35,424 nucleotides of DNA from Candidatus Hodarchaeum mangrovi (GCA_016839515.1 JAEOUE010000160.1:1-35424), one strand, 5' to 3'; shown: positions 4,467 to 21,493, numbered from the stretch's first letter. Made by a program: numbers and translations. The notes: generated by a model from the letters alone, not told the origin.

Positions 4467-4931
4467 ATGCAACCTACAAGGGCTTTGATGGGTAATAGAA
4501 ATACAAGTTGGGTTTCAAATAATAAAGGAGTGGTTATTTCCTCCTTTTTTGGACTTTTATTCGTGATTATCAGAATATGGATTTTAATATTTGAGGCTTC
4601 GATAAGTTCTGCCATTGTGGTGTTAATGGAAACAGTTCAACTAGTCATTCTCTTTCTAGGTTTAATGATTTTTGTATACAACTTTGGTTATGTTGTGATA
4701 ATGCTCACAGTTGATGAAGGGTTAAATGAGGAGGAAAAAAATTTGTTAAAATGGATGATCAAACGTGCAATAATGATTTCTGTATTTTGGTTTGTCAGTG
4801 TTTTGAGTTTCTTAATTATTTTTCAAAGAGATCCTTTTTTACTTGCATCAGCCAATTGTTTCTTATTAGCCTCATTATTTTTCTTTATTAGAAAAGGTGA
4901 AAATCCTCTTGTTGAGGGTACCTTTGTATAA
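4467..4931 (+). CDS. Hypothetical membrane protein (about 4 TM helices)
   Basis: 154-aa ORF with four hydrophobic segments, ggtga SD-like motif upstream, ends 26 nt before the AAA-vWA gene. Confidence 0.65.
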   Translation: MQPTRALMGNRNTSWVSNNKGVVISSFFGLLFVIIRIWILIFEASISSAIVVLMETVQLVILFLGLMIFVYNFGYVVIMLTVDEGLNEEEKNLLKWMIKRAIMISVFWFVSVLSFLIIFQRDPFLLASANCFLLASLFFFIRKGENPLVEGTFV

Positions 4932-4957
4932 ATATAAAAAAAACTTGGATATTTGAA

Positions 4958-7795
4958 ATGAACTTATCTGACGGTCTTTCTGGAGTAGAAAAGTACGTTA
5001 CTACTTCCGAAACTTTCTCCCGACTCAAAGGTAATGAGCCGTTAAAAATTCTTCTTTTATTACTTGCAATTGACCCTTCAATAGGGGGAATGGTAATTAT
5101 GGGTCGTACTGGTACTGGAAAATCTTGTTTCTTAGAAGCCTTTAAAGATCTTCAAATTCCCTTGCATAGAGAGGATAAGAACTTTGCACCAATCATTGAT
5201 ATCCCTTCAAACATTTCTTTCGATGCACTTATTGATACATTAAATCTCCAGTTGAAATTCAGAGAAGGGATTTTCTCCAAAGTGCATAATGGATTTCTTA
5301 TTATAGATGATTTTCATTTACTTTCCGAATCTATTGCCAATACTATAATCAATGTATGGAAAACTAAAGAGAATATAGTACATAGATCTAATCTGTCCAT
5401 AAATCAATCGAGTAATTTTTGTTTACTGATTTCCATAAATAGTAGCTTTCACGAAATTTCAACCGCTGTATTAGATAAATTTGCATTTGTTTACGAAATG
5501 AAAGATTTTAATACACTTCAAGAACGTTTAGATATTGTAAATATGAATATAGAACCCATGAAAGATCCTAACTTGTATAAAGAAAAAAATAATCTATATA
5601 ATTCAATAAATCAAGCACGTAATATGTTATCTGAGGTTAATCTTCCTATATCAAATATTCAATATATTTCTACTATTTGTCAACAAAGTGAAATTCAAGG
5701 ACATAGAGCAGATATAGCTCTAGCTCGTGGTGCTATAGCATTAGCATGTTTACTAAATCGCAATGAAGTTGCACGAGAAGATATAGATTTTCTTGTTCCT
5801 TATGTACTTTCTCATAGATTACCAGAAAGAAAAGAGTCTTTTGAAAATGATATTATTAATATAAATAAAGGAGTATCTCATGATCTTAGAGAAAAAAAAG
5901 ATCCTAACTTTTCTTCATCACCAATGAGAGCAGAGTCTCCTAAGCGTATCCGAATTATTTTAGAATGGTTTGCTTCAATTTTTGGAATATGCATGACAGC
6001 TCTATTTTCATCAATTATCATTACTCAAATAATTACTAGACCTGATTTACTTATCTCCTTATTTAGTGCATTATCATTGTGGGGATTAGGTACCTTTCTT
6101 CTTTTAATCTACTTGAAGAAACGTAGAAAGTTAATGAAAGAATATAAAGTTAAAGAAGATGAAAATGTAGAACAAAAACCTGATTTAACCTCATTTTCCC
6201 ACGTGAAACATTTCCAAATTATTAAATCCGTAAAAGAGGAAAAAAAGCCGTCTAAAAAGGAAGTTATTCTTGATTTAGATGAGGATAGATCTAGAAAAGG
6301 CAAATTGTTACGATTTGTTGGTTTAAAGCGTCGACAGGGTTTAATCTCTTTCACGGAGAAACAACGTCTATATGCTAGCCTTTTTGGGGTAATAGTTCTT
6401 ATTATTAGTTTCTTCATTTTTTCATATTTTATTTCTATCCTCCCAGTAGAATTCTGGATTCAATTAATTATCTTCCTTGTTTCTTTATTTACCATTGGAT
6501 ATATTATACAATCTTTGAGAAAAAATTGGCGAGTTCATCGTGCAGCAGATATTGGTGCTTCAGAGGGGGAATCAAGTCGTAAATTAGATGATAAGGGAAT
6601 AGGAACACATATTTCGCCTATTGAAAGACTAGATAATGAATCCTTGAACCCTCAAGAGGACTATGGGACAAATTTACTCAATCGATTAGCTGAACTCGAC
6701 CTTTTACCTAAAAAAAATTTTCAAGGAGTTGAGTTAATAGTACCGCCTAATAATACCTCACTGAGATCAGTTAGAATTATTGCTGATGCTCTCCCAACTC
6801 TTAAAACTCGAATTGATTCTCGTAAAAGATCAAAAATGGGAAAGAGAGCAATAAGTGTAACCTCCTTACAATCAGGTCGAGTAATAGGATCTCACCCATT
6901 TATTCATTATCCTAAAAATATTCATCTATTAGCTACTCTAAGGAATACAATTATGCGTCAATATCGTGAGAGGGCATCATGCTCTACTAACCGTTTTATT
7001 ATTAAATTAGAAGACATTCAGGAAAAAACTTTTTGCACACGAGTTTCTGCTACCATTATTTTTGTTCTTGACCTCTCAGAATCAATAGTTAGTACAATAA
7101 ACGCTGTTTCAAGCTCTGTAAATTGGTTAAGTCGTCAAGCATATTTATATCGTGATCGTGTGGGTATAGTTGTCTTACAAGGAACCCAAGGAGTTATTAT
7201 ACAACCTCCGACTTCTAATTTAAACTTGGTGAAAAGAAAATTAAAAAATTTAAAGGCTTCAGGAGCTACTCCGCTCGCAGGTGGTCTTCAAAAAGCCGTT
7301 GAACTAATAAAACTAGATTTAATAAGGAATAAAAATGAATCAATACCTATGATTATTCTAATAACTGATGGAGCAACAAACATACCGTTATTAAAAGATC
7401 CATGGACAGGAGTAACTCGTAATACTCCATTAAAAGAATTAAAAGATAGAGCATATTCCATGGCAATTCTTGATTGTCTTGCAATTGCCCATCAAATTAA
7501 AAAAAGTAAAATTTCCCTCATAATATTTAATACTAATAGACGAGGAGAACTCATTTTCCGAAAAATTCCAAGAACTCAACAGGAATCAATAATTGATTTT
7601 CTTAATCAGTTAATAGTTGAAAGCACCCTATTTCGAGGTAGACGACATATGGATCTTTGGTCCTACACTCTGTTGCGTGCGATGCAGGAAATTACAAGAG
7701 GTTTCTTGTATCATCTTACTCGAATAGAGTCTGACTATAATTTAGAAACTTTAAGGATTGCACGAGCAGAGATTTTAGCGAATATAACTAATTAA
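4958..7795 (+). CDS. ChlD/BchD-like degenerate AAA+ plus vWA protein with four internal TM helices
   Basis: LLAIDPSIGG, Walker A GRTGTGKS, degenerate Walker B IIDDFHLL, GHRADI. The vWA domain has MIDAS DLSES, GATPLAGGL and ITDGATN. Two hydrophobic hairpins lie at about 5954-6116 and 6368-6518. Confidence 0.85.
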   Translation: MNLSDGLSGVEKYVTTSETFSRLKGNEPLKILLLLLAIDPSIGGMVIMGRTGTGKSCFLEAFKDLQIPLHREDKNFAPIIDIPSNISFDALIDTLNLQLKFREGIFSKVHNGFLIIDDFHLLSESIANTIINVWKTKENIVHRSNLSINQSSNFCLLISINSSFHEISTAVLDKFAFVYEMKDFNTLQERLDIVNMNIEPMKDPNLYKEKNNLYNSINQARNMLSEVNLPISNIQYISTICQQSEIQGHRADIALARGAIALACLLNRNEVAREDIDFLVPYVLSHRLPERKESFENDIININKGVSHDLREKKDPNFSSSPMRAESPKRIRIILEWFASIFGICMTALFSSIIITQIITRPDLLISLFSALSLWGLGTFLLLIYLKKRRKLMKEYKVKEDENVEQKPDLTSFSHVKHFQIIKSVKEEKKPSKKEVILDLDEDRSRKGKLLRFVGLKRRQGLISFTEKQRLYASLFGVIVLIISFFIFSYFISILPVEFWIQLIIFLVSLFTIGYIIQSLRKNWRVHRAADIGASEGESSRKLDDKGIGTHISPIERLDNESLNPQEDYGTNLLNRLAELDLLPKKNFQGVELIVPPNNTSLRSVRIIADALPTLKTRIDSRKRSKMGKRAISVTSLQSGRVIGSHPFIHYPKNIHLLATLRNTIMRQYRERASCSTNRFIIKLEDIQEKTFCTRVSATIIFVLDLSESIVSTINAVSSSVNWLSRQAYLYRDRVGIVVLQGTQGVIIQPPTSNLNLVKRKLKNLKASGATPLAGGLQKAVELIKLDLIRNKNESIPMIILITDGATNIPLLKDPWTGVTRNTPLKELKDRAYSMAILDCLAIAHQIKKSKISLIIFNTNRRGELIFRKIPRTQQESIIDFLNQLIVESTLFRGRRHMDLWSYTLLRAMQEITRGFLYHLTRIESDYNLETLRIARAEILANITN

Positions 7796-8677
7796 TTGTC
7801 GGTCGTGAGAAAATTGGAGATTGAACTACCTAAGAAAGTATTTCGACAAGGCGAAATGATAGATGTGTCAATTAATTTCTCCGCCATAAAAGCTCCACTT
7901 CAAGAGGGAACAATTGCTCTCATCGGAAAGGAAAAAACTGAATTTACCATTCAATCAATATTTGGTAAAACAGGTTTTCACCCTGCATGGAGTTTTATTT
8001 TACCAAGTCGTCATCAAAAAGAAGAAATAGAGTTTCTTAGACAAACCCATGAAATATCAACTCAAGATGCTCATTGGAATGAGAGTTTAGAAGTCCCTAG
8101 AAATGCTATTCCATCATATTATGGGGATAATGGGAAAGTATCGTATTTTCTTGAGATTCTATTAAATTTTGAAGATGGATCAAGTGAAAAAAAGACAGAA
8201 CAGATCATTATAGATCGGGATTACGAAATTGAAGAAAAAATAGAAATTCTTTCGATTCAAAGTGGGACATTAACAATATGCTATTCCACTCCCTTGCAGG
8301 TTGGACGAAAAAACCGATTAAATATTTCAACTCAGAATCTGACCTCCATTAATCCATTACGTATAATTCTAAAGAAAATTGAAACCTACACAGCAAATAG
8401 AATTACTATCAACGATGATAACCACAGTTTACCTATTTGTCAATTGACTTTCGATACAGACTTATCCGATACAGAAATTAATTTTGAGATTCCTTCTCGT
8501 TATCAACCGAGTTATGAAGGACTTCTGTCACGATGTGAATATTATGTTGAAATCTATTATTTATTAGGTAAGAAAGGAATAACATCTCGTCGTGAACGAT
8601 TAAAATTACTAACTAAGTTTCAAACCACTATAGAACATCCAGATCCTGGTCTTAAGTCAATTACGGGTGATAAATAA
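7796..8677 (+). CDS. Arrestin/Vps26/SpoOM-fold two-domain beta-sandwich protein
   Basis: N-terminal IELPKKVFRQGEMIDVSI pattern, then the arrestin-type motif twice: VPRNAIPSYYGDNGKVSYFLEI and IPSRYQPSYEGLLSRCEYYVEI. TTG start abuts the upstream stop. Confidence 0.7.
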   Translation: MSVVRKLEIELPKKVFRQGEMIDVSINFSAIKAPLQEGTIALIGKEKTEFTIQSIFGKTGFHPAWSFILPSRHQKEEIEFLRQTHEISTQDAHWNESLEVPRNAIPSYYGDNGKVSYFLEILLNFEDGSSEKKTEQIIIDRDYEIEEKIEILSIQSGTLTICYSTPLQVGRKNRLNISTQNLTSINPLRIILKKIETYTANRITINDDNHSLPICQLTFDTDLSDTEINFEIPSRYQPSYEGLLSRCEYYVEIYYLLGKKGITSRRERLKLLTKFQTTIEHPDPGLKSITGDK

Positions 8678-8680
8678 CTT

Positions 8681-9127
8681 ATGATAAGATCTATAGAACC
8701 TATCATATCAGATATTATAAAATGGAGTATAATATTAACTACGATTAGTTTTTTAGTTTCAATTGTAAGTATTTTTCTTTTTATTGATATAGAACAGGAA
8801 AACATTCCATACTTAACCTTGTTGTCGACAGCAATGAGTAACCTGAATTTTTTATTAGGCTCCCTTTCTTTAGCAACAGGATTAATAATTACCTTTTTTA
8901 AACCCCCTAATCGTCATTCAGAATCCTCTAGCGAGAAACCTAAGTTCATACCACAATATAAAAACGAAAGAATCAAAAAAAACAATATAAAATCAGTTAA
9001 ACCTTTTCCGAGCTCACCACCTCTATTTTCGGAACGAGAAAAAAAACTAATATTAACAGGCTTATTCACTATTGGAATTGCATTTGGTATTTGGATAATA
9101 TTCCTGTTTCTTTACCCTTTATACTAA
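8681..9127 (+). CDS. Hypothetical membrane protein (3 TM helices, basic/Pro-rich loop)
   Basis: Three hydrophobic segments, ggtga upstream, starts 3 nt after the previous stop. Confidence 0.65.
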   Translation: MIRSIEPIISDIIKWSIILTTISFLVSIVSIFLFIDIEQENIPYLTLLSTAMSNLNFLLGSLSLATGLIITFFKPPNRHSESSSEKPKFIPQYKNERIKKNNIKSVKPFPSSPPLFSEREKKLILTGLFTIGIAFGIWIIFLFLYPLY

Positions 9128-9187
9128 TCAGCAAATTATATCATTGATGATAAAGGATTTTTTCATGTTACTGATTGAATTCTTCCC

Positions 9188-9970
9188 TTAGATCCCATTC
9201 ATAGCAGCTAGAACAAGCATAACTGGGATTGGAGATAGAATTAAAGCAATAACGGTAGCATATAACGATTGAAATGCGTCATAGCTTCGTATAAATGTGA
9301 ATGTAATAATACCTATCTTCAGAAGAAAGAGAATTAATAGAAAATTATGCAGGATCACCTCCAAATAAGAAAGTGCCTCATAATAGATTTGATCATGATT
9401 AAATTTAACATAATATGGGGAAATTTCATTTAATTGTGAATCTAAAATGTTGATAATCATGTTTTCATCTAGATGAACTTCTACCCACGAATGCCATTTT
9501 CCGATAACCACATAGCTATCATATCCTCGTCGAGTCAATAAGGAAGCTGCAACTAATGCAATTCCATCACAATCATCACCACGGGCTAAGACATCCGAAA
9601 CAGAAGCACGATGATCCAACGTTATATAATTTGCTATATCATCTGTAAATGGAATTATTCTATCAATGAAAGCTTCTACCGCTTTGATTTCTATAATAAA
9701 GTTATTTTTGGTCTTTAATAATAAGGAAATAGATTCATAATTTGCATTAAGATATGCTTCAAATTTTTGGTCTAATTCAATAATTTTTGGGTTATCAGGT
9801 TGAATTGTTTCAGTTAAAGCAAAACGATTCATCATTTGATCAGGCCATACTAGAGGGTTTAAGGAAAATCCTGTTAGGAGATATGTTAAAGTCAAGAGTG
9901 CAGCAATAGCTAATTCCTTATTAGTAAAAGTTAAGCGGGCCATCTCTAATTTCTCAAAGTTCAACCACAA
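9188..9970 (-). CDS. Membrane-anchored transglutaminase-like cysteine protease domain protein
   Basis: GDDCDGIALVAASLL (Cys), WHSWVEV (His), ILD (Asp); one N-terminal and two C-terminal TM segments; the start may be ATG 9943. Confidence 0.7.
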   Translation of the reverse strand: MWLNFEKLEMARLTFTNKELAIAALLTLTYLLTGFSLNPLVWPDQMMNRFALTETIQPDNPKIIELDQKFEAYLNANYESISLLLKTKNNFIIEIKAVEAFIDRIIPFTDDIANYITLDHRASVSDVLARGDDCDGIALVAASLLTRRGYDSYVVIGKWHSWVEVHLDENMIINILDSQLNEISPYYVKFNHDQIYYEALSYLEVILHNFLLILFLLKIGIITFTFIRSYDAFQSLYATVIALILSPIPVMLVLAAMNGI

Positions 9971-10107
9971 ATCTAAAATTCTTCGTAAGGATTCTCGTAA
10001 TTACAGAAACTTTTCTTCTTTATATAATCATTTATTTTAGTGCAAAACCTTAATCAGCCAAATTTATGTATAACATTTAAAAAAATTCCAGATAGACTTC
10101 TAAGCCA

Positions 10108-12141
10108 TTAGTTTTCTTTTTTCATTTTCGTTTTATCATTCTGGTAGGGAATTTTCTCTAATGCAGCTCGTTTTGATGCAATTACTCTTTCACGGGAACG
10201 TAATTCGATTTTTTTCACCATCTCTTTATCTAGCAAATCACGAGTTGGTTGGTTTAAGCTTAATACTTGCATTTTTCCTCTATAATAAACAGTAAGAACT
10301 AGAAAAAAAAGCATACCTACAAAAAAGGTTGGATTCATATCAGTATATTTTCCTTTATCTTTAATGTGATTTAAACTGGTATCAAAGCTAAGAAGTGATG
10401 TGTGAAGTTTTCTAACAAGTGAGTAAGCTTCTCTGTAGTTCATTTCTTGATATTTCGTTAAAACTGCAAAATAAGAAGCATTATATGAATTAAATAGATT
10501 TTGTAAGTTTTTAGTATATACTTTATCTTTAGCTGAAACTATAGCTTGATTGATAATTGAACGGGAAGCTTTGAGTAGAATATCTATTTGGCCCCGTTGA
10601 ATGTTATCAATAGAAAATATACTGAACTGGGAGGAATGCGTATAATAAGACATTACATCGTCAATAAAATTACCCACAGTCCCAAATTGAAAAGGATGCA
10701 TTAATCCGATTTGATGTCCCAGCTCATGGATTAGAGTCTGCGATAATCCATGAAATGGTTGAGGATTTGATCGATTGTCACCATAAGTATATTTATAATC
10801 ATGGCTAATGATCGTCAATGGAGAATCAAGTTCATCCCGTAATGCAATGCCTAAAAGACTAGGCTCCAATTTTGCTTTGTCAGCAATACCAAATAAGGCG
10901 TCATCAAAAATGAAAGCAAACGTTTTAAAGTGAACCGTAAAAAATTGAAAGTAAATTTCTTCAAGAAACGTCCCAGCATTCGAATAAAGTTCCTCATAAA
11001 TAGGGATAAGATCAACTGCATACTTTCGAGTAGATTGGTTATTAAATTCTCCCCAAGGAACAATGGAGGACTGTATAATGGAATAAAGACTTGGAACGGT
11101 GTTTAATGCTTGAAATTTTACATCGATGACACATTTTATCCAAGGATAAACAGTTTCAAAGGAATTTAAAATGAAAGTTTCATTAACTGTCCATCGAAGA
11201 TCTTCAGGAGAAAACCCAGTCACATTTGTTAAGACTAGAATTTCAAAATAAAATTGTACTCCAGTACTTAAATCACCAACTGGTGCGAGTGGCGAATATA
11301 CATAATCTTGAACCCAAAGATTTCTTTCGACTTCATAAATCCATTGTGCAATAAAATCTGAGAACCTTTGGAATCCATAGGGGGTCTGGAGGTTGTACAA
11401 CTGCTCAAATTCTTGAAGGGTACTATTTGAACCCTCATTTTGTAAATAATAGGAATCTGAGGTGAGATCTAAGTAATAAAGGCGATCTTGAGAACCATAC
11501 CCTGTCATAAAACTCCTACGAATAGAAGTATGCGCGTCTGGGTCGATATATGTTTCATTATACCAGTGAGTTGTGTATTCTCCATCATCTAGCATTGTAA
11601 GATTCGAAAGAAATAAGGTATATCCTGGGATTGGTTTTAATCCGTAATAAAATTCATAATTATCTGCAAGCCATGAAATTGTTTTTGTCGCATTAATAAA
11701 TCGTCCCTTATCACTGGTTCCATCAGAATGATTGATAGTATCAGGAATCGCTGTATAGTTTATAAAATTGAAAAATTCATTATCAAAAGAGTTTGAAGCT
11801 AGTTCATAATAGTGATTTATAAAGAATGATTTATCAGTGTAATCTTGTTGAAAAAAGCTTATTACGCTTCTCTCAATCTGAGAAGGTTGTCCTTCTATTA
11901 TAGGATTAATTAGACTGTTCATTATTTGAGTATTAAAACCAGTAAATATAATTCGGGAAAACAACTCTGATCTTGTTGGGAGATTTGGAGTATCATAGAA
12001 CGACGCAGCGCTCGTTGGAATCGTATTAGGTACTATTATCAAACAAACAATTAAAAAAAAGATTAGGTTATTCTTCATCAAGAAAGATCTTTTGATTAGC
12101 AATATTTTCTCACCTATTTTCATAATTATGAATTTATTCAA
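10108..12141 (-). CDS. Secreted, membrane-anchored zinc metalloprotease (metzincin)
   Basis: Signal peptide ending TSA-A, HELGHQIGLMH (HExxHxxGxxH), Met-turn DVMSY, C-terminal TM followed by a basic tail; probable start ATG 12078. Confidence 0.8.
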   Translation of the reverse strand: MNKFIIMKIGEKILLIKRSFLMKNNLIFFLIVCLIIVPNTIPTSAASFYDTPNLPTRSELFSRIIFTGFNTQIMNSLINPIIEGQPSQIERSVISFFQQDYTDKSFFINHYYELASNSFDNEFFNFINYTAIPDTINHSDGTSDKGRFINATKTISWLADNYEFYYGLKPIPGYTLFLSNLTMLDDGEYTTHWYNETYIDPDAHTSIRRSFMTGYGSQDRLYYLDLTSDSYYLQNEGSNSTLQEFEQLYNLQTPYGFQRFSDFIAQWIYEVERNLWVQDYVYSPLAPVGDLSTGVQFYFEILVLTNVTGFSPEDLRWTVNETFILNSFETVYPWIKCVIDVKFQALNTVPSLYSIIQSSIVPWGEFNNQSTRKYAVDLIPIYEELYSNAGTFLEEIYFQFFTVHFKTFAFIFDDALFGIADKAKLEPSLLGIALRDELDSPLTIISHDYKYTYGDNRSNPQPFHGLSQTLIHELGHQIGLMHPFQFGTVGNFIDDVMSYYTHSSQFSIFSIDNIQRGQIDILLKASRSIINQAIVSAKDKVYTKNLQNLFNSYNASYFAVLTKYQEMNYREAYSLVRKLHTSLLSFDTSLNHIKDKGKYTDMNPTFFVGMLFFLVLTVYYRGKMQVLSLNQPTRDLLDKEMVKKIELRSRERVIASKRAALEKIPYQNDKTKMKKEN

Positions 12142-12233
12142 TCCCTCTTAAAGTTCAAGAGTGTGGTAATTTTATTGTCAAATATTTAAATTGTCTTAGA
12201 TATTCTCCAAATTCAGTACCTGAAATTAAAGTT

Positions 12234-12260
12234 AAAAGAAAACAATGAAAAAGAAAAAAT
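12234..12260 (-). terminator. Oligo-T archaeal terminator after oppF
   Basis: The minus strand has consecutive T-runs immediately after the stop at 12265. Confidence 0.5.
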
Positions 12261-12264
12261 TAGA

Positions 12265-13263
12265 TTATTTATAAGCATAATCTGACTCTTCAAGTGGAAA
12301 ATGACAAGCCACAAAGTGATTTGGTGATATTTCATCTAGTGGAGGCTCTTCCTTTGAACAGATTGATTTCGCGTACATACAACGATTACTAAATCGACAG
12401 CCGGAAGGTGGAAATATAGGAGACGGTACATCACCCCTTAAAACTAATCGATTCATTTTTCGTTGGAGGTCTAAACTTGGTACTGCTGAAATTAATGCTT
12501 CAGTATAAGGGTGAGCTGGATTACGGAATAATTCCTCGGTTGCAGAGCTCTCAACAATTTTTCCGACATACATTACGTTAACAAATCGTGTAATATGTCT
12601 TACTACACCTAAATCGTGAGCTACAACGATATAGGTAAGATTCAGTTCGTTTTGTAGGTCTTGGAGAAGGTTCAGAATTTGTGCTTGAATCGATACATCA
12701 AGAGCGGAAACAGGCTCATCTGCGACTATAAGTCTTGGGTTGAGTGCAAGAGCTCTAGCAACGCCAATACGTTGACGTTGACCTCCTGAAAACTCATGTG
12801 GAAAGCGATAGTAATGATCAGGAGCTAAGCCAACTGTTTTAAGTAGGTTAAAAACAATCTCAGATCTTTCCGAAGCGTTTGCGACACCATGAACAACAAG
12901 AGGTTCACCAATAATGTCACCTACCTTCATTCTAGGATCTAGAGACGCATAAGGATCCTGGAAGATAATTTGCATATCTCGCCTAAGTTGACGCATTTTT
13001 CGGCCTTTTGAACGAGTGATATCTACTCCATCAAAGAGAATTTGACCTCCAGTAGGATCATATAACCGTAAAATGCACCTTGCTGTCGTGGTTTTTCCGC
13101 ACCCTGATTCTCCAACAAGACCAACAGTGCCACCTCGTGGAACTGAGAAGCTCACATCATCAACTGCTCGGAGCGTTAAAGTATCAGAAGAGAAAAGTCC
13201 TCTTGTAACTTCAAAGTACATCTTTAAATTTTTGACTTCAATAATATTATCTGTTTTACTCAT
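12265..13263 (-). CDS. oppF: Oligopeptide/dipeptide ABC transporter ATP-binding protein
   Basis: GESGCGKTT, FSGGQRQR, VADEPVSALD, HPYT, C-terminal Cys cluster; start set at ATG 13263, preceded by aggagttga. Confidence 0.93.
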   Translation of the reverse strand: MSKTDNIIEVKNLKMYFEVTRGLFSSDTLTLRAVDDVSFSVPRGGTVGLVGESGCGKTTTARCILRLYDPTGGQILFDGVDITRSKGRKMRQLRRDMQIIFQDPYASLDPRMKVGDIIGEPLVVHGVANASERSEIVFNLLKTVGLAPDHYYRFPHEFSGGQRQRIGVARALALNPRLIVADEPVSALDVSIQAQILNLLQDLQNELNLTYIVVAHDLGVVRHITRFVNVMYVGKIVESSATEELFRNPAHPYTEALISAVPSLDLQRKMNRLVLRGDVPSPIFPPSGCRFSNRCMYAKSICSKEEPPLDEISPNHFVACHFPLEESDYAYK

Positions 13264-13283
13264 AATATCAACTCCTGAATACT

Positions 13284-14258
13284 TTAGGTATATAGATGAC
13301 AAGCAATACGATGACCTGGTTCTACTTCTAATTCTTCAGGAAAGCTCTCACGGCATACAGGCATTGCCTTTGAGCAGCGGGGGTGGAATGGACAACCTGA
13401 AGGAGGATTAATTAAATCAGGAACTTCTCCCGGGATTGGGGCAAGGCGATCCTTTTTCTGACTGATTTTAGGAATTGACTCATGAAGACCTTTTGTATAG
13501 GGATGTAGAGGATTTTCAAAGATATGTTCAACTTTACCAAACTCAGCAATATGTCCTGCATACATTACTGCAACTTTATTCGCTAATTCAACAACTAATC
13601 CCAAGTTATGAGTTATTAGAATCAGGGAAGTTTGAATTTCTTCCATTAAATTAGCCATAATTTCCAGAATTTGAGCCTGAATAGTAACATCAAGGGCAGT
13701 AGTAGGTTCATCTGCGATTAAAAGGCTCGGATTACAGGAAAGTGCCATGGCAATACCCACTCTTTGGCGCATTCCTCCACTCAATTGATGAGGATAATTT
13801 TCAAGACGATCTTCTGGATTTGGAAGCCCTACCATACTAAAGTATTCAACTACCTTTTGAAGAATTTCCTGTTTTGATAAAGACTGATGTAAACGAATTG
13901 CTTCTGCTACTTGCTCACCAACAGTTAGTACTGGATTAAGAGAGGTCATAGGATCTTGAAAAATCATTGAAATCCGATTTCCTCTGATTTTTCTCATATC
14001 ACGCATTGGTAGCTGCAACAAATCGATCCCATCGAACCAGACTTCACCACTTTCGATACGACCAGGAGGTATCGGAATCAGTCTCATCATTGAGAGTGCG
14101 GAGACACTTTTACCGCATCCAGATTCCCCCACGAGTCCAAGACTTTCTCCTCGATTTATTCGATAAGAAACCCCTTCTACAGCTTTTACAACCCCTTTCT
14201 TTGTATAAAAATGAGTCCGAAGATCTCGGACGTCTAATAATACTCCACCAGTACTCAT
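13284..14258 (-). CDS. oppD: Oligopeptide/dipeptide ABC transporter ATP-binding protein
   Basis: [38 protein letters not shown]. Confidence 0.95.
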
Positions 14259-14260
14259 GG

Positions 14261-15232
14261 TTACACATCCCTTGTCCTTGGATCTAATACATCTCGTAAC
14301 CAGTCTCCAAGAAGATTAAAGCCTAATACTACAATGAATATAGCTAATCCAGGAAAGAACATCGGCCATGGGTGATCAAAGAAGGTATAACGTGCACCAT
14401 TCATATCACCTCCCCAGTCTGGTTGATTTGGTCGTGCACCAAGGCCAATAAAACTGAGTCCAGCGGTACTCATGATGGCACCACCAATACCCATGGTTGC
14501 ATATACTAGAATAATTGGGAAAACGTTGGGTAGTACATGTTTTACGATAATTCGTGCTTCACTAGATCCTGTAGCTCGTGCTGCATCAATAAAATCCATT
14601 TCACGAACCGCTAGTACGGATCCACGTAATATTCGGGCATAACCAGGGATTCCCATAAAACCAACGAAGAACATTGCAATTAGAAGGGTGTATTTTCCTG
14701 CTGGATTCCAAGGCTGGTCCGAGAGGGCTGCTACTATAATTAATAGCATAAAGAAACTAGGAATTGACATCCAAGCATCTACAATTCGCATTAAAATATT
14801 ATCAACACTACCACCAAGATAACCAGAAAGCGATCCAATTAGGATACCCCCAAATAGGCCAACTGATATCGCCAATGTCCCTGCTAGAACAGCACTTCGG
14901 GCTCCATAAAGGATACGAGAAAATATATCTTGGCCAGCCCAATCAGTTCCCATCAAGTAAGGAAATCCAGTGGTAGGGGTATCTCCGGTAATTAAGAATG
15001 GATCTTGAAAGGAAGGCATACCTACAGTATAATCATCTTCAGTTGGGTGATATGGAGCTATTACATCAGCAAAAATTGCAATTGAAAAGAATCCAAGGAT
15101 TATGATGAATCCGATTAACGCTGTCCAGTTATGGATAAGGGAGTGAAAATAGGCCCGTAGTCTTGCTCGAAATCGTCGTTCACGTTTGACTTGAGCGATA
15201 AGCTCTTCTTGAGTCATAATACTCATACCCAT
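14261..15232 (-). CDS. oppC: Oligopeptide/dipeptide ABC transporter permease
   Basis: MGTDWAGQDIFSRILYGAR, EAA-like FIDAARATG, HVLPN, GDWLRDVLDPR; SD aggagtga. Confidence 0.93.
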   Translation of the reverse strand: MGMSIMTQEELIAQVKRERRFRARLRAYFHSLIHNWTALIGFIIILGFFSIAIFADVIAPYHPTEDDYTVGMPSFQDPFLITGDTPTTGFPYLMGTDWAGQDIFSRILYGARSAVLAGTLAISVGLFGGILIGSLSGYLGGSVDNILMRIVDAWMSIPSFFMLLIIVAALSDQPWNPAGKYTLLIAMFFVGFMGIPGYARILRGSVLAVREMDFIDAARATGSSEARIIVKHVLPNVFPIILVYATMGIGGAIMSTAGLSFIGLGARPNQPDWGGDMNGARYTFFDHPWPMFFPGLAIFIVVLGFNLLGDWLRDVLDPRTRDV

Positions 15233-15247
15233 GATAAATCACTCCTT

Positions 15248-16255
15248 TTAACTGTACCGAATACGTGGATCTAAATAAGCATACGCAATATCCACCACAA
15301 GGTTCATCAAGATTAACAAAGTAGAACTAAATAGTACTACGCCCATAATTACTGGATAATTACGTGTAAGTAGTGCACGATAACCATAACGTCCCATACC
15401 AGGCCATGAAAAAATAGTTTCCATAATTACAGCTCCACCAAACAAACCAGCAAGATCTAGTCCAATAATAGTTACTACTGGAATTAGGGCGTTTTTCAGA
15501 GCATGTTTGTAGATAACCACTTTTTCAGCTAAACCTTTAGATCGTGCAGTGGTAATATAATCTTGTCGAATAACCTCTAACATACTCGACCGAGTAATTC
15601 GGGCATAAAATCCTGCTGACGCAATTCCCATTGCCACTCCTGGAATAATTAAGCGTCCAATGGGGGATGCATTATCACGCCAACCTGGAGTAATGAATCC
15701 TCCATGTAAAGGAAATAAGTCAATGGCTATGAATTGAATTAGAATAAATGCTAACCAATATCCCGGTGTAGAATAAAGAGTTAATGTAACAAAAACTAAA
15801 AACCGATCAGTAAATTGATTGTGTTTGACAGCTGAAATAATCCCTACAATTATTCCTGTTGAACAGGCAAATAATAGTGCTGTTGTTGTTAACTGTAATG
15901 TTGCAGGGAATAAATGTAACATCTCTTCAACTATTGGTTGGTTCGTCTCCCAATTTCTACCAAAATCACCTGTTGCGAGATGGGCTAACCAGATTAAGTA
16001 TTGTATCCAAACTGGATGGTTTAATCCCAGTTCATCTCTTAATCGTTCATATTCTGCTTCCATGGCCATTAAATCTTCTGCAGTAATATCTTTTTGCCCT
16101 CTCATCATCTCGGGGTTGATTGCTCCACCAAAAATTAGTGTAGCAGGATCCCCTACAGCAAGGGCTGCGGAAGAATAGGTAATCATTGTGATTACCAATA
16201 AAAGCACAGGGGCAAGAATTAACCGTTTGACAACGTATCCTCTAAGACCTGCCAT
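15248..16255 (-). CDS. oppB: Oligopeptide/dipeptide ABC transporter permease
   Basis: GDFGR, RITRSSMLEV, DYITTARSKGL, HALKNA, ETIFSWPGMG, LDPRIRY. Confidence 0.95.
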   Translation of the reverse strand: MAGLRGYVVKRLILAPVLLLVITMITYSSAALAVGDPATLIFGGAINPEMMRGQKDITAEDLMAMEAEYERLRDELGLNHPVWIQYLIWLAHLATGDFGRNWETNQPIVEEMLHLFPATLQLTTTALLFACSTGIIVGIISAVKHNQFTDRFLVFVTLTLYSTPGYWLAFILIQFIAIDLFPLHGGFITPGWRDNASPIGRLIIPGVAMGIASAGFYARITRSSMLEVIRQDYITTARSKGLAEKVVIYKHALKNALIPVVTIIGLDLAGLFGGAVIMETIFSWPGMGRYGYRALLTRNYPVIMGVVLFSSTLLILMNLVVDIAYAYLDPRIRYS

Positions 16256-16281
16256 TGTTTTGCACCTTTTACCAATATTAC

Positions 16282-16330
16282 GGCAAATATCTGTGAAACA
16301 GAGAATTGCCAGAATAGAAATCCTTATATA
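16282..16330 (-). promoter_or_regulatory. Putative oppB promoter: TATA box TATATAAG (16330-16323) with an inverted repeat over the expected start site
   Basis: The same TATATAAG octamer occurs upstream of oppA; the inverted repeat ggcaa..tctgt-gaa-acaga..ttgcc spans 16282-16310. Confidence 0.45.
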
Positions 16331-16602
16331 TCTTTATAAAGGAAATTAATTCTTCACTTCCTAGTTATATATTTTAATTATATGTATCAGAAAAATGATA
16401 TATCAGAAATAAGAATTTCATCCCACAAATGAATATTATATGAGAAAAAATTAAATATTGTTAATTTATTTCGTAAATTATTTCTTATAGGTTGGATAAA
16501 TAAGATTTCAAGTTGAATTATAAAATAAATGCTATTTTATAGAAATGAACTAATTACCTAGATTGAAGAAGTCCTGAGAAATTTGGAATTATAAATGAAG
16601 AA

Positions 16603-17012
16603 TTAAACAAAAAATATCTCTCTAATCCAAGAATTTAAAATAACTAATTGCTCATCTTTTAGGACTGCTCCATTTCTGTGAATACTTGTAAAATTCTCCC
16701 AAACCTTGGATGATTGGGTGATTAGGTTAATAAATTTTCCTAACTTTTTTATTGGATGGTAAGATAGGCCTTAAAAACATAACAGAATAGGAGTGGACTT
16801 TTTTCTTTGAATATTAAATTATATTCTTTATATTTTATACGCTCAATTGAACCTCCACTTATAGAGGCAAATGCGTTCTTCATTATAGAATTAACGGCTG
16901 AAATAATCCCACTTAATAGCTGTTCTTCAAATTTCTGTTCATTAAATCTTTTTGAATAAACGCATAAACCATTCTCATGCATTACTAGAAGCAGAATGGA
17001 TTCTTCTTCTTT
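16603..17012 (-). pseudogene. 5'-truncated, frameshifted fragment of a longin-like C-terminal domain of the kind found on Asgard proteins
   Basis: The frame reads KEEESILLLVMHENGLCVYSKRF...LLSGIISAV...SIERIKYKEY...FCYVFK. After a 1-nt shift near 16770 it continues (G)LSYHPIKKLGKFINLITQSSKVWENF...LNSWIREIFFV* to a stop at 16603. Confidence 0.7.
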
Positions 17013-18729
17013 AACTGAAATAGGGATTAATTCTAAAATATTTTATAGTAATATGTTATTTGCGAAAATCATAGGTCAAGAAATACCTGATCTTTATCAA
17101 CGATTAAGTCTAGTTAGAAGTACTAGTTTGGCTGGTGAATGGATTTTCGCTTCAACAGCTTTTCCCCATAAGCAGAAAGCTCATCAATATTACGGAAAGA
17201 GAAGATTCACTCCTAACGTATCTGTACCAATGTTATCGACTTCTATTTCTTATGAGGATCTTTTGAAGTGTCAATCTTTTGTTCCAGAATTCCTGAATCT
17301 CTGTATTAAATCTATTAAAAAATACAACGCCCCAATTATTGGTATTTCAACCTTTTTTCAGCAAACCTGTGCAGCTATTTCCATTGCTAAAGAAATAAAA
17401 AGAAATTTTCCCAAAAGTTTAATCATTCTTGGAGGAGGGAACTGCTTAGTTCCCATGAATTATGCACTTGATTCCTTAACACGAAATACAGTAGATTACA
17501 TTTTTAGCGGGGAAGCTGAGAGGGAATTCAAAGATTTCTGTCTGAATTATCTGAAAGAAGGGGTTTTACCTTCAAAACATCTTATTGAATGTGCACCGAT
17601 TCCAGATCTTGATCTATTACCGATTCCAGATTATGATGAATATTATGGACAATTATATGAATTTGGATTAGAATCAAATATTCGAAGACTTGGATTTGAG
17701 TCTTCTCGAGGATGCTGGTGGGGTGAAAAATCAAACTGTCTATTTTGTGGGTTGAATGGAATAGATATCCATTATCGCCAAAAATCTCTTAAAAGAATAT
17801 GTCATGAAATAGAATTCTTAAGTAAGAAATATAATGTAACATTATTGCAAGCAACGGATAATATCATGCCCAAAGATCTACCCGAAGCTTTAATGCAAAA
17901 ATTTAGCCCTCCTTCAACTCTCAATAGCATTTATTACGAAGTAAGGCCAACTCTTTCGTTTGAAGAATTATATTATTGTAAAAAAGCAGGAATAAAAACA
18001 CTTCAACCTGGAATGGAATCATTAACTAATCATTTATTATTCCTATTATCAAAAGGATTGACAGCTTCAGGAAACATCCGATTTTTAAGAGACTGCCGAA
18101 ATTTAGGGATTCGACTTGATTGGAATCTGTTGTATGGGATTCCTGGGGAAGAGGTAAAAGATTATGAGGAAATGTTACGGATTATTCCATTTATAAGTCA
18201 CCTAGCACCTCCAGATTTCATTGGACCAGTCAATATTCAACGATATAGTCCATTATATATGAATCCGAAAAAATATGGAATTTCCAAAATCATACCTCAT
18301 CCCAACTACTTGGAAATATATCCAGATGAAACTGACTTCTTTCAATTTGCGTTATATTTTGAAAGTAATTTCCAAACTGTATTTACTGGAGCATTAGAAC
18401 GTGAATTCCTAGCTCAAATCTCCTTCTGGCGTGAGAAATGGAAACAAAATCCTCCAACACTTCGAGCTATTAAATTAAATGAAGAAACATATTTGATTGA
18501 TGATACTCGATCTGAAGTTAATCAGGGTATAAGATTAATTTCTGCGAAATATATTAAGATATTAAACAATTTTAGAAATCCAGTAAAAAGATCTCAATTC
18601 GACATAGATGAAATACAGCTTCTTAAATGGGGTTATTTACTTAAAATAGGAGAATATGTTGTCTCTCTAGTATGTGAACCAATGCAAGTCCTAAACTATT
18701 ATGAGAAATTTAATAAAAGAATTCAGTAA
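16996..18729 (+). CDS. RiPP-maturation B12-dependent radical SAM methyltransferase-like protein (PoyC/TIGR03975-like), probably N-terminally truncated
   Basis: GEWIF, IGISTFFQQ, ILGGGNC, FSGEAE, LPIPDYDEY, ESSRGCWWGEKSNCLFCGLNG (CX7CX2C), TDNI, LQPGMES, WNLLYGIPGE, RYSP. Confidence 0.85.
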   Translation: MDSSSLTEIGINSKIFYSNMLFAKIIGQEIPDLYQRLSLVRSTSLAGEWIFASTAFPHKQKAHQYYGKRRFTPNVSVPMLSTSISYEDLLKCQSFVPEFLNLCIKSIKKYNAPIIGISTFFQQTCAAISIAKEIKRNFPKSLIILGGGNCLVPMNYALDSLTRNTVDYIFSGEAEREFKDFCLNYLKEGVLPSKHLIECAPIPDLDLLPIPDYDEYYGQLYEFGLESNIRRLGFESSRGCWWGEKSNCLFCGLNGIDIHYRQKSLKRICHEIEFLSKKYNVTLLQATDNIMPKDLPEALMQKFSPPSTLNSIYYEVRPTLSFEELYYCKKAGIKTLQPGMESLTNHLLFLLSKGLTASGNIRFLRDCRNLGIRLDWNLLYGIPGEEVKDYEEMLRIIPFISHLAPPDFIGPVNIQRYSPLYMNPKKYGISKIIPHPNYLEIYPDETDFFQFALYFESNFQTVFTGALEREFLAQISFWREKWKQNPPTLRAIKLNEETYLIDDTRSEVNQGIRLISAKYIKILNNFRNPVKRSQFDIDEIQLLKWGYLLKIGEYVVSLVCEPMQVLNYYEKFNKRIQ

Positions 18730-18750
18730 TAAAACGAAATATATCTTAGT

Positions 18751-18781
18751 ATTTTTTTAAAAAAAAGAAAAAAAGGGGGGG
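18751..18781 (-). terminator. Oligo-T terminator after oppA (may be bidirectional)
   Basis: The minus strand has a C-run then TTTTTTTCTTTTTTTT right after the TAA; the plus strand has a T7 run facing the rSAM gene. Confidence 0.6.
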
Positions 18782-18782
18782 T

Positions 18783-20714: not shown

Positions 20715-20715
20715 A

Positions 20716-20870
20716 ACACAACGATCTCTATCTGTACTCTCGATAACTGAATCTAAGTTTTATTTCTATTTTACTAACTAAGAAGTAATTAAATGATTTT
20801 TACTGGTAATAAGGGAGAGTACACCTATAAGATCTGTGCGACACTTCGCTACTCTTATTATTCTTATATA
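20716..20870 (-). promoter_or_regulatory. oppA promoter (TATATAAG at 20870-20863) and a long self-complementary 5' leader
   Basis: Minus-strand arm GCACA-GATCT-TAT-AGG-TGTACTCTC (20839-20815) is complementary to GAGAGTACA-G-ATA-G-AGATC-GT-TGTGT (20741-20716). Confidence 0.5.
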
Positions 20871-21000
20871 GTTATCCTCACTCAGCATAACTATCTTTAA
20901 ATTCACCCTCTTATTCTGGATTTACTCTTTCAAATATCAAAGGTAGTACTTTCGATAGGATTTTATTCTGGTTAAGAATTAAATAAAACTTGATTTTCTA

Positions 21001-21492: not shown

Positions 21493-21493
21493 G

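What the first reader, a model, noticed from the sequence alone, without database searches (positions are those of the whole stretch)
4467..9127. Candidate undescribed membrane module: TM-anchored AAA+/vWA protein plus arrestin-fold protein plus two small membrane proteins
Seen: four co-oriented genes with gaps of 26, 0 and 3 nt. They encode a 4-TM protein, a ChlD-like AAA-vWA protein with built-in TM hairpins, a two-domain arrestin-like protein and a 3-TM protein. Knowledge: AAA+/vWA pairs act as remodelling machines in which the vWA MIDAS grips a substrate, and arrestin/Vps26 folds are cargo adaptors for membrane proteins in eukaryotes. Inference: a membrane-protein recognition, remodelling or sorting complex rather than a tetrapyrrole chelatase. 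I know of no description of this combination.
Basis: partly seen in the sequence, partly recalled or inferred. Interest (0 to 1): 0.8.

Follow-up and report, generated by a model that had tools for sequence, protein, structure and literature searches.

The report
Membrane-anchored ChlD-like motor beside archaeal arrestin
In some members of one genus of Hodarchaeales (Asgard archaea close to eukaryotes), a chelatase-type ATPase/vWA protein held in the membrane by four helices sits in a tight gene row with a true arrestin-fold protein and two small membrane proteins; it is not a chelatase, and its function is still inferred, not shown.

Summary
Four co-oriented ORFs (4467-9127) encode a ~4-TM protein, a 945-aa ChlD-like protein with two TM hairpins replacing the usual linker, a two-lobe arrestin-fold protein and a 3-TM protein.

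The row is not a complete or obligatory unit. The catalytically intact ChlI partner lies 14 kb away (21494-22564). It occurs in exactly the 7 of 22 genus genomes that carry the ChlD-like gene. One of those 7 has only ChlD-TM and ChlI, adjacent, with no arrestin or small TM genes.

The stretch 4467-22564 is a variable island between hutU and hutH, which directly adjoin in 6 of 8 module-less loci read.

A chelatase role is unlikely: no CobN, HemB or HemC was found.

The vWA domain with an invariant MIDAS is the best conserved part. The AAA module of ChlD-TM has lost the Walker-B Glu and the Arg finger.

My best reading (about 0.45): a membrane-tethered ChlI/ChlD-type AAA+/vWA motor acts on a protein client, with arrestin, TM4 and TM3 as an accessory adaptor or client set. 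Binding and expression are untested.

This scan reported the same module before on other genomes. I found no published description.

The parts
4467..4931 (+). TM4: 154-aa protein with 4-5 hydrophobic segments. It has an invariant acidic loop (DEGLNxEE) and an invariant C-terminal GENPLxEG.
   Evidence: alignment A5. Orthologs at 51-61% identity occur in 5 other genomes. No Pfam or NCBIfam family. A distant paralog sits in Opp-operon context.
4958..7795 (+). ChlD-TM: 945-aa ChlD-like protein. It has an N-terminal AAA-like module, a linker with four TM helices, and a C-terminal vWA domain.
   Evidence: 16 protein clusters were found, and every one that carries a name is Hodarchaeales/Heimdallarchaeota. 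The linker matched in only 7 of 400 phylum genomes.
4958..5857 (+). AAA-like module of ChlD-TM (residues 1-300). Walker A GxxGxGK[ST] is present in 14 of 14 orthologs. Walker B reads DD instead of DE in 14 of 14. Lys replaces the Arg of the LLDRF motif in 13 of 14.
   Evidence: plus the alignment to BchI 1g8p. That these positions are the catalytic Glu and the Arg finger rests on established knowledge of ChlI/BchI.
5948..6115 (+). TM hairpin 1 (residues 331-386).
   Evidence: Present in the 5 orthologs and in the G012 ortholog.
6362..6520 (+). TM hairpin 2 (residues 469-521).
   Evidence: The basic flanks (KKRRK, RKNWRVHR) place the AAA and vWA domains on one side of the membrane, presumably the cytoplasmic side (inference from the positive-inside rule).
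7043..7567 (+). vWA domain (residues 696-870) with MIDAS residues D705-x-S707-x-S709, T771 and D804, all invariant in 14 of 14 orthologs. It is the most conserved part of the protein.
   Evidence: Mean pairwise identity is 72.7% with 71 of 175 columns invariant, against 45.2% for the AAA module and 36.0% for the TM linker.
7796..8677 (+). Arr: 293-aa two-lobe arrestin-fold protein, no TM segment, no PPxY motif.
   Evidence: The family is very narrow: 8 representatives at E<=1e-30 among 1.84 billion proteins and 16 clusters.
8681..9127 (+). TM3: 148-aa protein with 3 TM segments and a basic, Ser/Pro-rich loop that carries a conserved FxPxY motif.
   Evidence: alignment A6. Orthologs at 32-40% identity occur in the same 5 other genomes.
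21494..22564 (-). ChlI-like AAA+ ATPase, the likely motor partner of ChlD-TM, with Walker A, Walker B DE and LLDR intact.
   Evidence: E 7.1e-96 to Synechocystis ChlI (6l8d). TIGR02030 scores 376.6 bits, below the 466.95 cut-off. Orthologs at 64-70% identity occur in exactly the 7 genomes that hold ChlD-TM, and the gene is adjacent to ChlD-TM in G012.
9188..9970 (-). Transglutaminase-like membrane protein with invariant Cys133, His159 and Glu163. It faces the row and co-occurs with Arr, TM3 and TM4.
   Evidence: It was found in 0 of 5 module-less genomes. The model has pLDDT 67.1. Foldseek hits are weak but consistent: PNGase at 2.1e-3, then TGase, LapG and Rad4.
10108..12141 (-). Membrane-anchored metzincin-like protein (HELGHQIGLMH motif). 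Its ortholog is specific to the genomes that carry the island.
   Evidence: Only 24-40% paralog matches were found in 4 of 5 other genomes tested.
4467..22564 (.). Variable island of ~18 kb between hutU and hutH, bounded by TM4 and ChlD-TM on one side and ChlI on the other. It also holds an Opp-type ABC operon, a radical-SAM gene and a small TM gene.
   Evidence: hutU and hutH are directly adjacent in 6 of 8 module-less loci, and a different insert sits there in the other 2. The minimal form is in G012.

Best explanation
The core is a two-gene, non-chelatase AAA+/vWA motor.
- The soluble ChlI-like ATPase (21494-22564) supplies ATP hydrolysis.
- ChlD-TM supplies a hydrolysis-impaired AAA-like platform, a four-helix membrane anchor and a vWA domain. 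The intact MIDAS of that domain grips a protein client at the cytoplasmic face of the membrane.

By analogy with CobS/CobT, NorQ/NorD and ChlI/ChlD, ATP-driven movement of the ring would be passed through the vWA domain to the bound client.

In 6 of the 7 genomes, three co-transcribed-looking genes are added: TM4 upstream, and the arrestin-fold protein and TM3 downstream. I read these as an accessory client or adaptor set. The arrestin would act as a soluble adaptor that recognises a cytoplasmic loop or tail of a membrane protein. TM4, with its invariant acidic motifs, would be a candidate MIDAS ligand or membrane partner.

Shown here: the domain architecture, motif states, fold, phyletic pattern and locus structure. 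Inferred: every physical contact, the topology, the client and the direction of action.
For: 1. Architecture and motifs. ChlD-TM has Walker A intact, Walker B DD (14 of 14) and Lys at the Arg-finger place (13 of 14), with the MIDAS invariant in 14 of 14. The vWA domain is the most conserved part, at 72.7% against 36-45% elsewhere.
2. Partner. The ChlI-like gene is catalytically intact. Its orthologs (64-70% identity) sit in exactly the 7 of 22 genus genomes that hold ChlD-TM. In G012 the two genes are adjacent, 56 nt apart.
3. Not a chelatase. CobN-Mg_chel was over cut-off in 0 of 15 genus genomes, while the control rang in 5 of 14 known genomes. No HemB or HemC was found in the own genome (91% complete), while controls rang in 11 of 14.
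4. Membrane anchor. Two TM hairpins are conserved in all 7 orthologs read.
5. Accessory set. TM4, Arr and TM3 occur in the same 6 genomes and nowhere else in the genus. They keep the same order, with predicted gaps mostly under 50 nt, in 6 of 6 loci. Five further ChlD-TM/Arr pairs of database proteins share a longest-contig length.
6. Arrestin fold.
7. TM4 carries an invariant DEGLNxEE loop and a GENPLxEG tail.
8. The mechanism of AAA+/vWA motors, with a vWA finger in the ring pore and MIDAS binding the partner, is taken from passages of the CobST preprint 10.64898/2026.10.09.757910.
Against: - One of the 7 genomes (G012, 83% complete) has ChlD-TM and ChlI but none of TM4, Arr, TM3, the TGase-like gene or the island's Opp operon at this locus. 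The motor therefore does not need the arrestin set.
- All six full loci belong to one genus and to one syntenic ~18 kb island. Conserved order is expected from common descent alone.
- Arr (38-47%) and TM3 (32-40%) diverge much faster than the vWA domain, which is not what a fixed vWA ligand would predict.
- ChlI lies 12-14 kb away on the other strand in the six full loci.
- There is no evidence of expression, and the topology is only predicted.
- The island is patchily distributed: on a hutU tree, module-bearing G002 is sister to module-less G020 (support 99/96). That pattern suits an accessory or conflict function as well.
Confidence: 0.45

Rival explanations
1. Two unrelated modules lie side by side. 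ChlI plus ChlD-TM is a self-sufficient membrane motor. TM4, the arrestin-fold protein and TM3 (perhaps with the TGase-like and metzincin-like genes) do something else, and merely landed in the same variable island.
For: - G012 keeps only ChlD-TM and ChlI, adjacent.
- The whole of 4467-22564 behaves as one insertion between hutU and hutH.
- The TGase-like gene tracks Arr, TM3 and TM4 rather than ChlD-TM: it was found in 0 of 5 module-less genomes, G012 among them.
- A TM4 paralog lives in a different context, at the 3' end of an Opp operon.
Against: - The three genes flank ChlD-TM on both sides, with gaps of 26, 0 and 3 nt here and similarly small gaps in 5 of 5 other loci.
- Arr, TM3 and TM4 were never found without ChlD-TM in the 22 genus genomes or the 400 phylum genomes searched.
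Confidence: 0.25
2. The island is a conflict or defence system. An NTPase/vWA sensor-switch would work with small membrane proteins as effectors and a beta-sandwich (arrestin-like) sensor.
For: - Presence is patchy at a fixed site within one genus, with a sister pair that differs.
- Module proteins diverge faster (32-61% identity) than the flanking GTPase (86-91%) and hutU (74-78%).
- That AAA+/vWA pairs are common in proposed conflict systems is recalled knowledge; I read no paper on it here.
Against: - No meaningful PADLOC match for 9 island proteins; the best were AbiLi at 0.0028 and generic AAA hits.
- No nuclease, protease-toxin or other recognisable effector lies in the row.
- The island also carries an Opp peptide importer and sits among histidine and peptide catabolism genes.
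- No mobile-element genes were seen among the ORFs scanned.
Confidence: 0.12
3. It is a metal-cofactor insertion or maturation chaperone, like NorQ/NorD, CoxD/CoxE or CbbQ/CbbO. Its target would be a membrane or secreted metalloprotein, for example the co-occurring metzincin-like protein or the Opp/Nik-type transporter substrate route.
For: - The family's known roles are metal insertion and enzyme activation (abstract of PMC9976466 in the listing; CobST passages).
- A metzincin-like protein is specific to the island.
- Opp/Nik-family ABC genes lie in the island, and also next to the soluble ChlI/vWA paralog in G010:C2.
Against: - The metzincin-like protein has an N-terminal and a C-terminal hydrophobic segment. 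It is presumably extracellular, while the AAA and vWA domains are predicted to be cytoplasmic.
- G012 keeps the motor without the metzincin-like ortholog.
- This reading explains neither the arrestin fold nor the membrane anchor.
Confidence: 0.1
4. It is a genuine class I Mg/Co chelatase motor whose catalytic subunit was missed.
For: The best family hits are chelatase models: TIGR02442 and TIGR02031 for ChlD-TM, and TIGR02442 and TIGR02030 for ChlI.
Against: - All scores lie far below the curated cut-offs.
- CobN was not found in G000 or over cut-off in 15 genus genomes, including three of 96-99% completeness.
- No HemB or HemC was found in G000.
- The acidic/Pro-rich linker is replaced by four TM helices.
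Confidence: 0.03

Closest known systems
ChlI/ChlD (BchI/BchD) motor of class I Mg-chelatase, and the single-chain ChlI-ChlD 'putative cobaltochelatase' (TIGR02442)
   Same: - The two-protein logic is the same: an active ChlI-type AAA+ ATPase, plus a D-type protein with a ChlI-like N-terminal module and a C-terminal vWA domain with MIDAS.
- The pre-vWA segment is homologous to that of the soluble fused paralog in the same genus.
   Different: - Four TM helices replace the acidic/Pro-rich linker.
- No ChlH/CobN and no HemB/HemC were found.
- All scores are below the family cut-offs.
- The gene is flanked by an arrestin-fold gene and small TM genes.
CobS/CobT, NorQ/NorD, CbbQ/CbbO and RavA/ViaA (AAA+ with vWA adaptor systems)
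   Same: These systems show how it probably works. An AAA+ ring acts on a vWA protein whose MIDAS holds the client (passages of 10.64898/2026.10.09.757910; abstract of PMC9976466 in the listing).
   Different: - Those ATPases belong to the MoxR/CobS type and their clients are known enzymes.
- Here the ATPase is ChlI-type, the vWA protein is itself membrane-anchored, and the client is unknown.
Eukaryotic arrestin-fold adaptors: alpha-arrestins/ARTs (ARRD-6, TXNIP), Vps26 and visual/beta-arrestins
   Same: The two-lobe beta-sandwich fold is shared. The top structural matches are 7usy_J (ARRD-6) at 2.6e-13, TXNIP, and Vps26 (2fau) at 1.9e-11. Pfam Arrestin_C scores above its cut-off.
   Different: - Sequence identity is only 9-14%.
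- There is no PPxY motif (direct reading of the translation).
- No Vps35, ubiquitin-ligase or GPCR context.
- The neighbour is an AAA+/vWA protein, a pairing I found in no paper.
Asgard arrestin-domain 'eukaryotic signature proteins'
   Same: It belongs to the known class of Asgard arrestin-domain proteins. These are mentioned in passages of 10.1101/2021.04.02.438162 and 10.1101/2025.11.06.686947.
   Different: - This is a narrow, divergent subfamily found in 6 of 400 phylum genomes.
- The other Asgard arrestin-like hits (8 weak matches) showed no ChlD-like neighbour within about 1.5 kb.

Membership tests
ChlD/BchD (TIGR02031) or single-chain chelatase (TIGR02442) | Score above the curated family cut-off | tested here: not met
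   TIGR02031 scores 262.4 bits against a cut-off of 499.55. TIGR02442 scores 284.4 against 779.45.
ChlD/BchD | N-terminal ChlI-like AAA module and C-terminal vWA domain with MIDAS | tested here: met
   MIDAS DxSxS...T...D is invariant in 14 of 14 orthologs.
ChlD/BchD | Soluble acidic/Pro-rich linker between the AAA and vWA domains | tested here: not met
   The linker holds two TM hairpins, at residues 331-386 and 469-521. They are conserved in all 7 orthologs read.
Class I chelatase system | Catalytic ChlH/CobN subunit present in the genome | tested here: not met
   PF02514 gave no match in G000. It was over cut-off in 0 of 15 genus genomes and in 1 of 23 genomes overall. The control rang in 5 of 14 known genomes.
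Class I chelatase system | Tetrapyrrole core pathway (HemB, HemC) present | tested here: not met
   PF00490 and PF01379 gave no match in G000, which is 91% complete. Controls rang in 11 of 14 genomes. Absence in an incomplete genome is not proof.
Class I chelatase motor | Active ChlI-type partner ATPase | tested here: met
   Window 21494-22564 matches ChlI 6l8d at E 7.1e-96, with Walker B DE and LLDR intact. It co-occurs with ChlD-TM in 7 of 7 genomes. It scores below the TIGR02030 cut-off, 376.6 against 466.95.
Arrestin / Vps26 fold superfamily | Two beta-sandwich lobes (arrestin N and C domains) | tested here: met
   The model has pLDDT 84.9, with strands spanning residues 8-140 and 146-277. 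Foldseek alignments run full length to ARRD-6, Vps26, TXNIP and arrestin-1.
Arrestin / Vps26 fold superfamily | Pfam arrestin model above its gathering score | tested here: met
   Arrestin_C scores 37.0 bits against 27.7. Arrestin_N at 19.5 bits is below its 24.9 cut-off.
Alpha-arrestins (ARTs) | PPxY/LPxY motifs that recruit HECT ubiquitin ligases | tested here: not met
   No PPxY or LPxY occurs in the 293-aa translation (direct reading).
Visual/beta-arrestins | Polar core, phosphate sensor and receptor-binding finger loop | not tested
   No residue-level superposition was done, and sequence identity is 9-12%.
Known anti-phage defence systems (PADLOC) | Match to a defence-system protein model | tested here: not met
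   9 island proteins were scanned. Only marginal generic hits appeared (AbiLi at 0.0028; RtcR-type AAA at 5.3e-05).
Transglutaminase-like cysteine peptidase fold (neighbour at 9188-9970) | Cys-His-Asp/Glu triad on a TGase core fold | tested here: inconclusive
   C133, H159 and E163 are invariant in 6 of 6 orthologs. The model pLDDT is 67.1. Foldseek hits are consistent but weak: PNGase at 2.1e-3, then TGase, LapG and Rad4. No Pfam hit.

The most novel reading that the evidence does not exclude
An archaeal arrestin works as a cargo adaptor. It would recognise cytoplasmic loops or tails of membrane proteins, such as TM3, TM4, or the Opp-type peptide importer with which the TM4 family is repeatedly linked. 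It would then hand them to a membrane-anchored ChlI/ChlD-type AAA+/vWA motor for extraction, remodelling or turnover. That would be a prokaryotic counterpart of alpha-arrestin-directed down-regulation of nutrient transporters, in the archaeal order closest to eukaryotes. It would also give the first functional context for an Asgard arrestin.
Probability: 0.1. Interest if true: 0.9.

Novelty: new variant of a known kind. Interest (0 to 1): 0.55.

Why it matters
Arrestin-domain proteins are counted among the eukaryotic signature proteins of Asgard archaea, but nothing is known about what they do there. This locus gives a concrete, testable context: a membrane-tethered AAA+/vWA motor plus small membrane proteins, in Hodarchaeales. 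It also shows that the chelatase-type ChlI/ChlD motor has been re-used away from tetrapyrroles and fixed to a membrane, which widens the known range of AAA+/vWA machines. The caveat is its narrow, patchy distribution: 6-7 of 22 genomes of one genus, on a variable island. It is therefore a lineage-specific accessory system, not an ancestral trafficking device.

Tried and rejected
- Complex prediction of ChlD-TM residues 300-945 with the arrestin protein (collected) gave score 0.00 against a mark of 0.32, with the verdict 'no answer'.
- RNA evidence: no RNA holder was listed for 4400-9200, so I did not lay reads.
- The metagenome contig scan with the ChlD-TM alignment returned only one 1155-base fragment. 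The genome-contig scan returned 6 loci in genomes already seen.
- ESM Atlas on TM4 gave no hit at 0.9 or above and no family.
- PADLOC gave nothing meaningful.
- The look-up of earlier notes by place returned nothing.
- The neighbours of 8 weak arrestin-like hits in other Asgard genomes hold no ChlD-like gene within about 1.5 kb.
- I tried to extend co-occurrence counts by matching longest-contig lengths between the protein lists. Five pairs matched. Seven ChlD-TM clusters had no matching Arr cluster, one of them being the verified Arr-less locus. Both lists are incomplete, because Arr genes I read directly in three loci were missing. The seven are therefore not evidence of absence.
- I rejected the idea that the seven module genomes form one clade with a single gain, because the hutU tree does not group them (single gene, 15 of 22 genomes, weak backbone).

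Full report
**Observation.** The window is contig C86 of genome G000. Source names of the closest proteins place it in Hodarchaeales/Heimdallarchaeota. Four + strand ORFs lie at 4467-4931, 4958-7795, 7796-8677 and 8681-9127, with gaps of 26, 0 and 3 nt.
- A Kyte-Doolittle scan finds 4-5 hydrophobic segments in the first protein (TM4) and three in the last (TM3). It finds none in the third, and two hairpins (residues 331-386 and 469-521) in the 945-aa second protein.
- The second protein hits AAA_lid_2 and VWA_2 in Pfam. It hits the chelatase models TIGR02442 (1.8e-84) and TIGR02031 (9.3e-78), both far below their cut-offs.
- The third protein passes Pfam Arrestin_C (37.0 bits against 27.7). 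An AlphaFold2 model built on 16 sequences (pLDDT 84.9, pTM 0.77) has two beta-sandwich lobes. Its best PDB matches are the alpha-arrestin ARRD-6 (7usy_J, 2.6e-13), TXNIP, Vps26 and visual arrestin, with 283 matches at E<=0.001.

**The motor and its partner.** I aligned 14 full-length orthologs of the ChlD-like protein, which I call ChlD-TM (A3).
- Walker A is present in 14 of 14.
- The Walker B pair reads DD in 14 of 14. BchI has DE at that place in the phmmer alignment.
- Lys stands in 13 of 14 where BchI has the Arg of LLDRF. That these are the catalytic Glu and the Arg finger is established knowledge of ChlI/BchI, not something I tested.
- The MIDAS residues (D705, S707, S709, T771, D804) are invariant.
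- The vWA domain is by far the most conserved region. Its mean pairwise identity is 72.7% with 71 of 175 columns invariant, against 45.2% for the AAA module and 36.0% for the TM linker.

A ChlI-like gene at 21494-22564 on the minus strand is catalytically intact. It matches Synechocystis ChlI at E 7.1e-96, with DE and LLDR in place. It still scores below the TIGR02030 cut-off, at 376.6 bits against 466.95.

**Phyletic pattern.** The genus holds 22 genomes, counting G000.
- ChlD-TM is found in 7 of them: G000, G002, G004, G010, G012, G018 and G019.
- Orthologs of the ChlI-like gene (64-70% identity) are found in exactly those 7.
- Seven genomes, G010 among them, carry a different paralog at 49-51% identity. 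It is a soluble fused ChlI-vWA protein of about 800 aa, or a split version.
- TM4, the arrestin-fold protein (Arr) and TM3 occur in the same 6 genomes, namely all of the 7 except G012.
- With the TM linker alone as query, only these 7 of 400 phylum genomes match.
- With the Arr profile, 6 of 400 match strongly. Eight further genomes give weak hits (E 1e-5 to 1e-3) to other arrestin-like proteins. None of those has a ChlD-like gene within about 1.5 kb.
- In the large protein collections the families are equally narrow. ChlD-TM has 16 clusters. Arr has 16 clusters, and 8 representatives at E<=1e-30 among 1.84 billion proteins.

These genomes are close kin, so the co-occurrence counts are not independent events.

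**Locus structure.**
- In the five other full loci the whole neighbourhood is syntenic. The order is Arf-like GTPase, hutU, TM4, ChlD-TM, Arr, TM3, then a facing TGase-like gene and a metzincin-like gene. ChlI lies 12-14 kb beyond ChlD-TM in four of them and on another contig in the fifth.
- Identity to the window falls from 86-91% (GTPase) and 74-78% (hutU) to 64-70% (ChlI) and 51-61% (TM4). It falls further to 42-48% (ChlD-TM), 38-47% (Arr) and 32-39% (TM3).
- In G012 the locus reads GTPase, hutU, ChlD-TM, ChlI. The last two are convergent and 56 nt apart. TM4, Arr, TM3, the TGase-like gene, the metzincin-like gene and the Opp operon are all missing.
- I read 8 module-less loci. In six of them (G003, G007, G011, G014, G015, G020) hutU directly adjoins hutH. 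In the other two (G001, G016) a different gene sits there, a 1011-1019-aa APH/M23/aminotransferase fusion.
- So 4467-22564 is a variable island. ChlD-TM sits near one edge, just inside TM4, and ChlI forms the other edge.
- On a hutU tree of the 15 of 22 genomes whose locus I had fetched, the module genomes are not one clade. G002 (module) is sister to G020 (none) with support 99/96. This is a single gene with a weak backbone.

**Not a chelatase.** CobN-Mg_chel was not found in G000. It was over cut-off in 0 of 15 genus genomes, and G028 of another family has it next to a canonical ChlD. HemB and HemC models found nothing in G000, which is 91% complete, while they ring in 11 of 14 control genomes.

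**How it most likely works.**
- Published AAA+/vWA motors place a finger of the vWA protein in the pore of the ATPase ring and use MIDAS to hold the client. I took this from passages of the CobST preprint 10.64898/2026.10.09.757910 and from the abstract of the NorQ/NorD paper PMC9976466 in the listing.
- By analogy, the ChlI-like ring would drive ChlD-TM. Its even number of TM helices and its basic flanks put both soluble domains on one side of the membrane, presumably the cytoplasmic side (inference).
- The strongly constrained vWA domain would then hold a client at the membrane.
- Candidate clients or adaptors are the three extra genes. TM4 has an invariant DEGLNxEE loop and a GENPLxEG tail. 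TM3 has a basic, Ser/Pro-rich loop with FxPxY. Arr is the only soluble one.
- I give this reading 0.45. The core statement, a non-chelatase membrane-tethered ChlI/ChlD motor, is more secure than the role of the arrestin set.

**Rivals.**
- Two juxtaposed modules (0.25), favoured by G012 and by the island behaviour.
- A conflict or defence island (0.12), favoured by patchiness and fast divergence. There was no PADLOC match.
- A metal-insertion chaperone for a membrane or secreted metalloprotein (0.10).
- A true chelatase (0.03).

**A further lead.** A distant TM4 paralog (25-28% identity, sharing the loop and the ENP[LF]xE tail) has six strong matches in the genus.
- At four loci (G000:C301, G009, G011, G012:C314) an OppF gene lies upstream.
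- At three loci (G000:C301, G010:C11, G021:C43) the paralog follows an Rce1-like gene and a 177-aa gene. The fetched stretches for G010:C11 and G021:C43 do not reach further upstream.
- The island in the window also carries an Opp operon.
- This is one syntenic locus among kin, so it is a hint only. It does make peptide importers a candidate target.

**Comparison and novelty.** The module works like ChlI/ChlD and the MoxR-type AAA+/vWA pairs, but it fails the membership tests for ChlD. Its scores are below cut-off, the linker is replaced, and there is no ChlH/CobN and no tetrapyrrole core. The arrestin-fold protein belongs to the arrestin/Vps26 superfamily by fold and by Pfam, but it lacks PPxY motifs.

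Asgard arrestin-domain proteins are known as eukaryotic signature proteins (passages). Four full-text searches found no paper that links them to a ChlD-type protein. bioRxiv supplements were closed and no supplements were read.

This scan reported the same module five times before on other genomes. My results agree with those notes on:
- the outside ATPase partner;
- the degraded ATPase motifs;
- the missing tetrapyrrole genes;
- the ChlD half standing alone.

I did not see the arrestin half standing alone in the genomes I searched.

**Verdict.** The feature is real. It is a new variant of a known kind of machine, of moderate to high interest, with its function inferred only.

Noticed in passing
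window 4415-22707; L036-L043: The hutU|hutH junction is a variable site in this genus. The two genes are directly adjacent in 6 of 8 module-less loci. In this window the junction holds an ~18 kb island. In G012 it holds only ChlD-TM and ChlI. In G001 and G016 it holds a 1011-1019-aa APH/Peptidase_M23/aminotransferase-III fusion plus a 144-aa ORF.
   Followed up: partly
G000:C301 (L050:681-1136, minus strand); L051:7063-7533; L058-L061, L064, L065: A distant TM4 paralog (25-28% identity, same loop and ENP[LF]xE tail) has 6 strong matches in the genus. At 4 loci (G000:C301, G009, G011, G012:C314) OppF lies upstream. At 3 (G000:C301, G010:C11, G021:C43) it follows an Rce1-like gene and a 177-aa gene. 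A 113-aa ORF follows it at 5 of the 6 (not at G012:C314).
   Followed up: partly
L028 about 5824-5833 (G010:C2): A run of ten A's lies between a ChlI-like ORF (4669-5862) and a vWA ORF (5958-7025). These two are fused into one soluble 797-aa protein in G009 (L027:5522-7915). It resembles the published poly-A -1 frameshift of 'magnesium chelatase' fs-genes (passages of PMC3711429; sequence).
   Followed up: partly
window 9188-9970 (minus strand): A membrane protein with invariant Cys133, His159 and Glu163. Its weak but consistent structural matches are to transglutaminase-fold proteins, with yeast and mouse PNGase on top. It co-occurs with Arr, TM3 and TM4, not with ChlD-TM alone.
   Followed up: partly
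window 10108-12141 (minus strand): A 677-aa protein with an HELGHQIGLMH metzincin-type motif and hydrophobic N- and C-termini. Family matches are marginal only. The ortholog is confined to the genomes that carry the island.
   Followed up: partly
alignment A3, columns about 71-100; window 21494-22564: 11 of 14 ChlD-TM orthologs carry a Cys-rich insert (C..NCS...C..C) after the Walker A region. The window's protein and its two closest relatives lack it. The ChlI-like partner has a Cys cluster (CPFKC...CESC) at the corresponding place, where cyanobacterial ChlI has none. This may be a zinc-ribbon-like insert.
   Followed up: no
window 1513-2217 and 32552-33022: Two other eukaryote-like proteins lie in the window. 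One is an Arf/Ras-like small GTPase, 86-91% identical across the genus. The other is a Roadblock/LC7-domain protein.
   Followed up: no
window 16996-18729 and 21001-21492: A radical-SAM gene interrupts the Opp-type operon. A 163-aa Gly-rich multi-TM ORF with no family lies between oppA and the ChlI-like gene.
   Followed up: no
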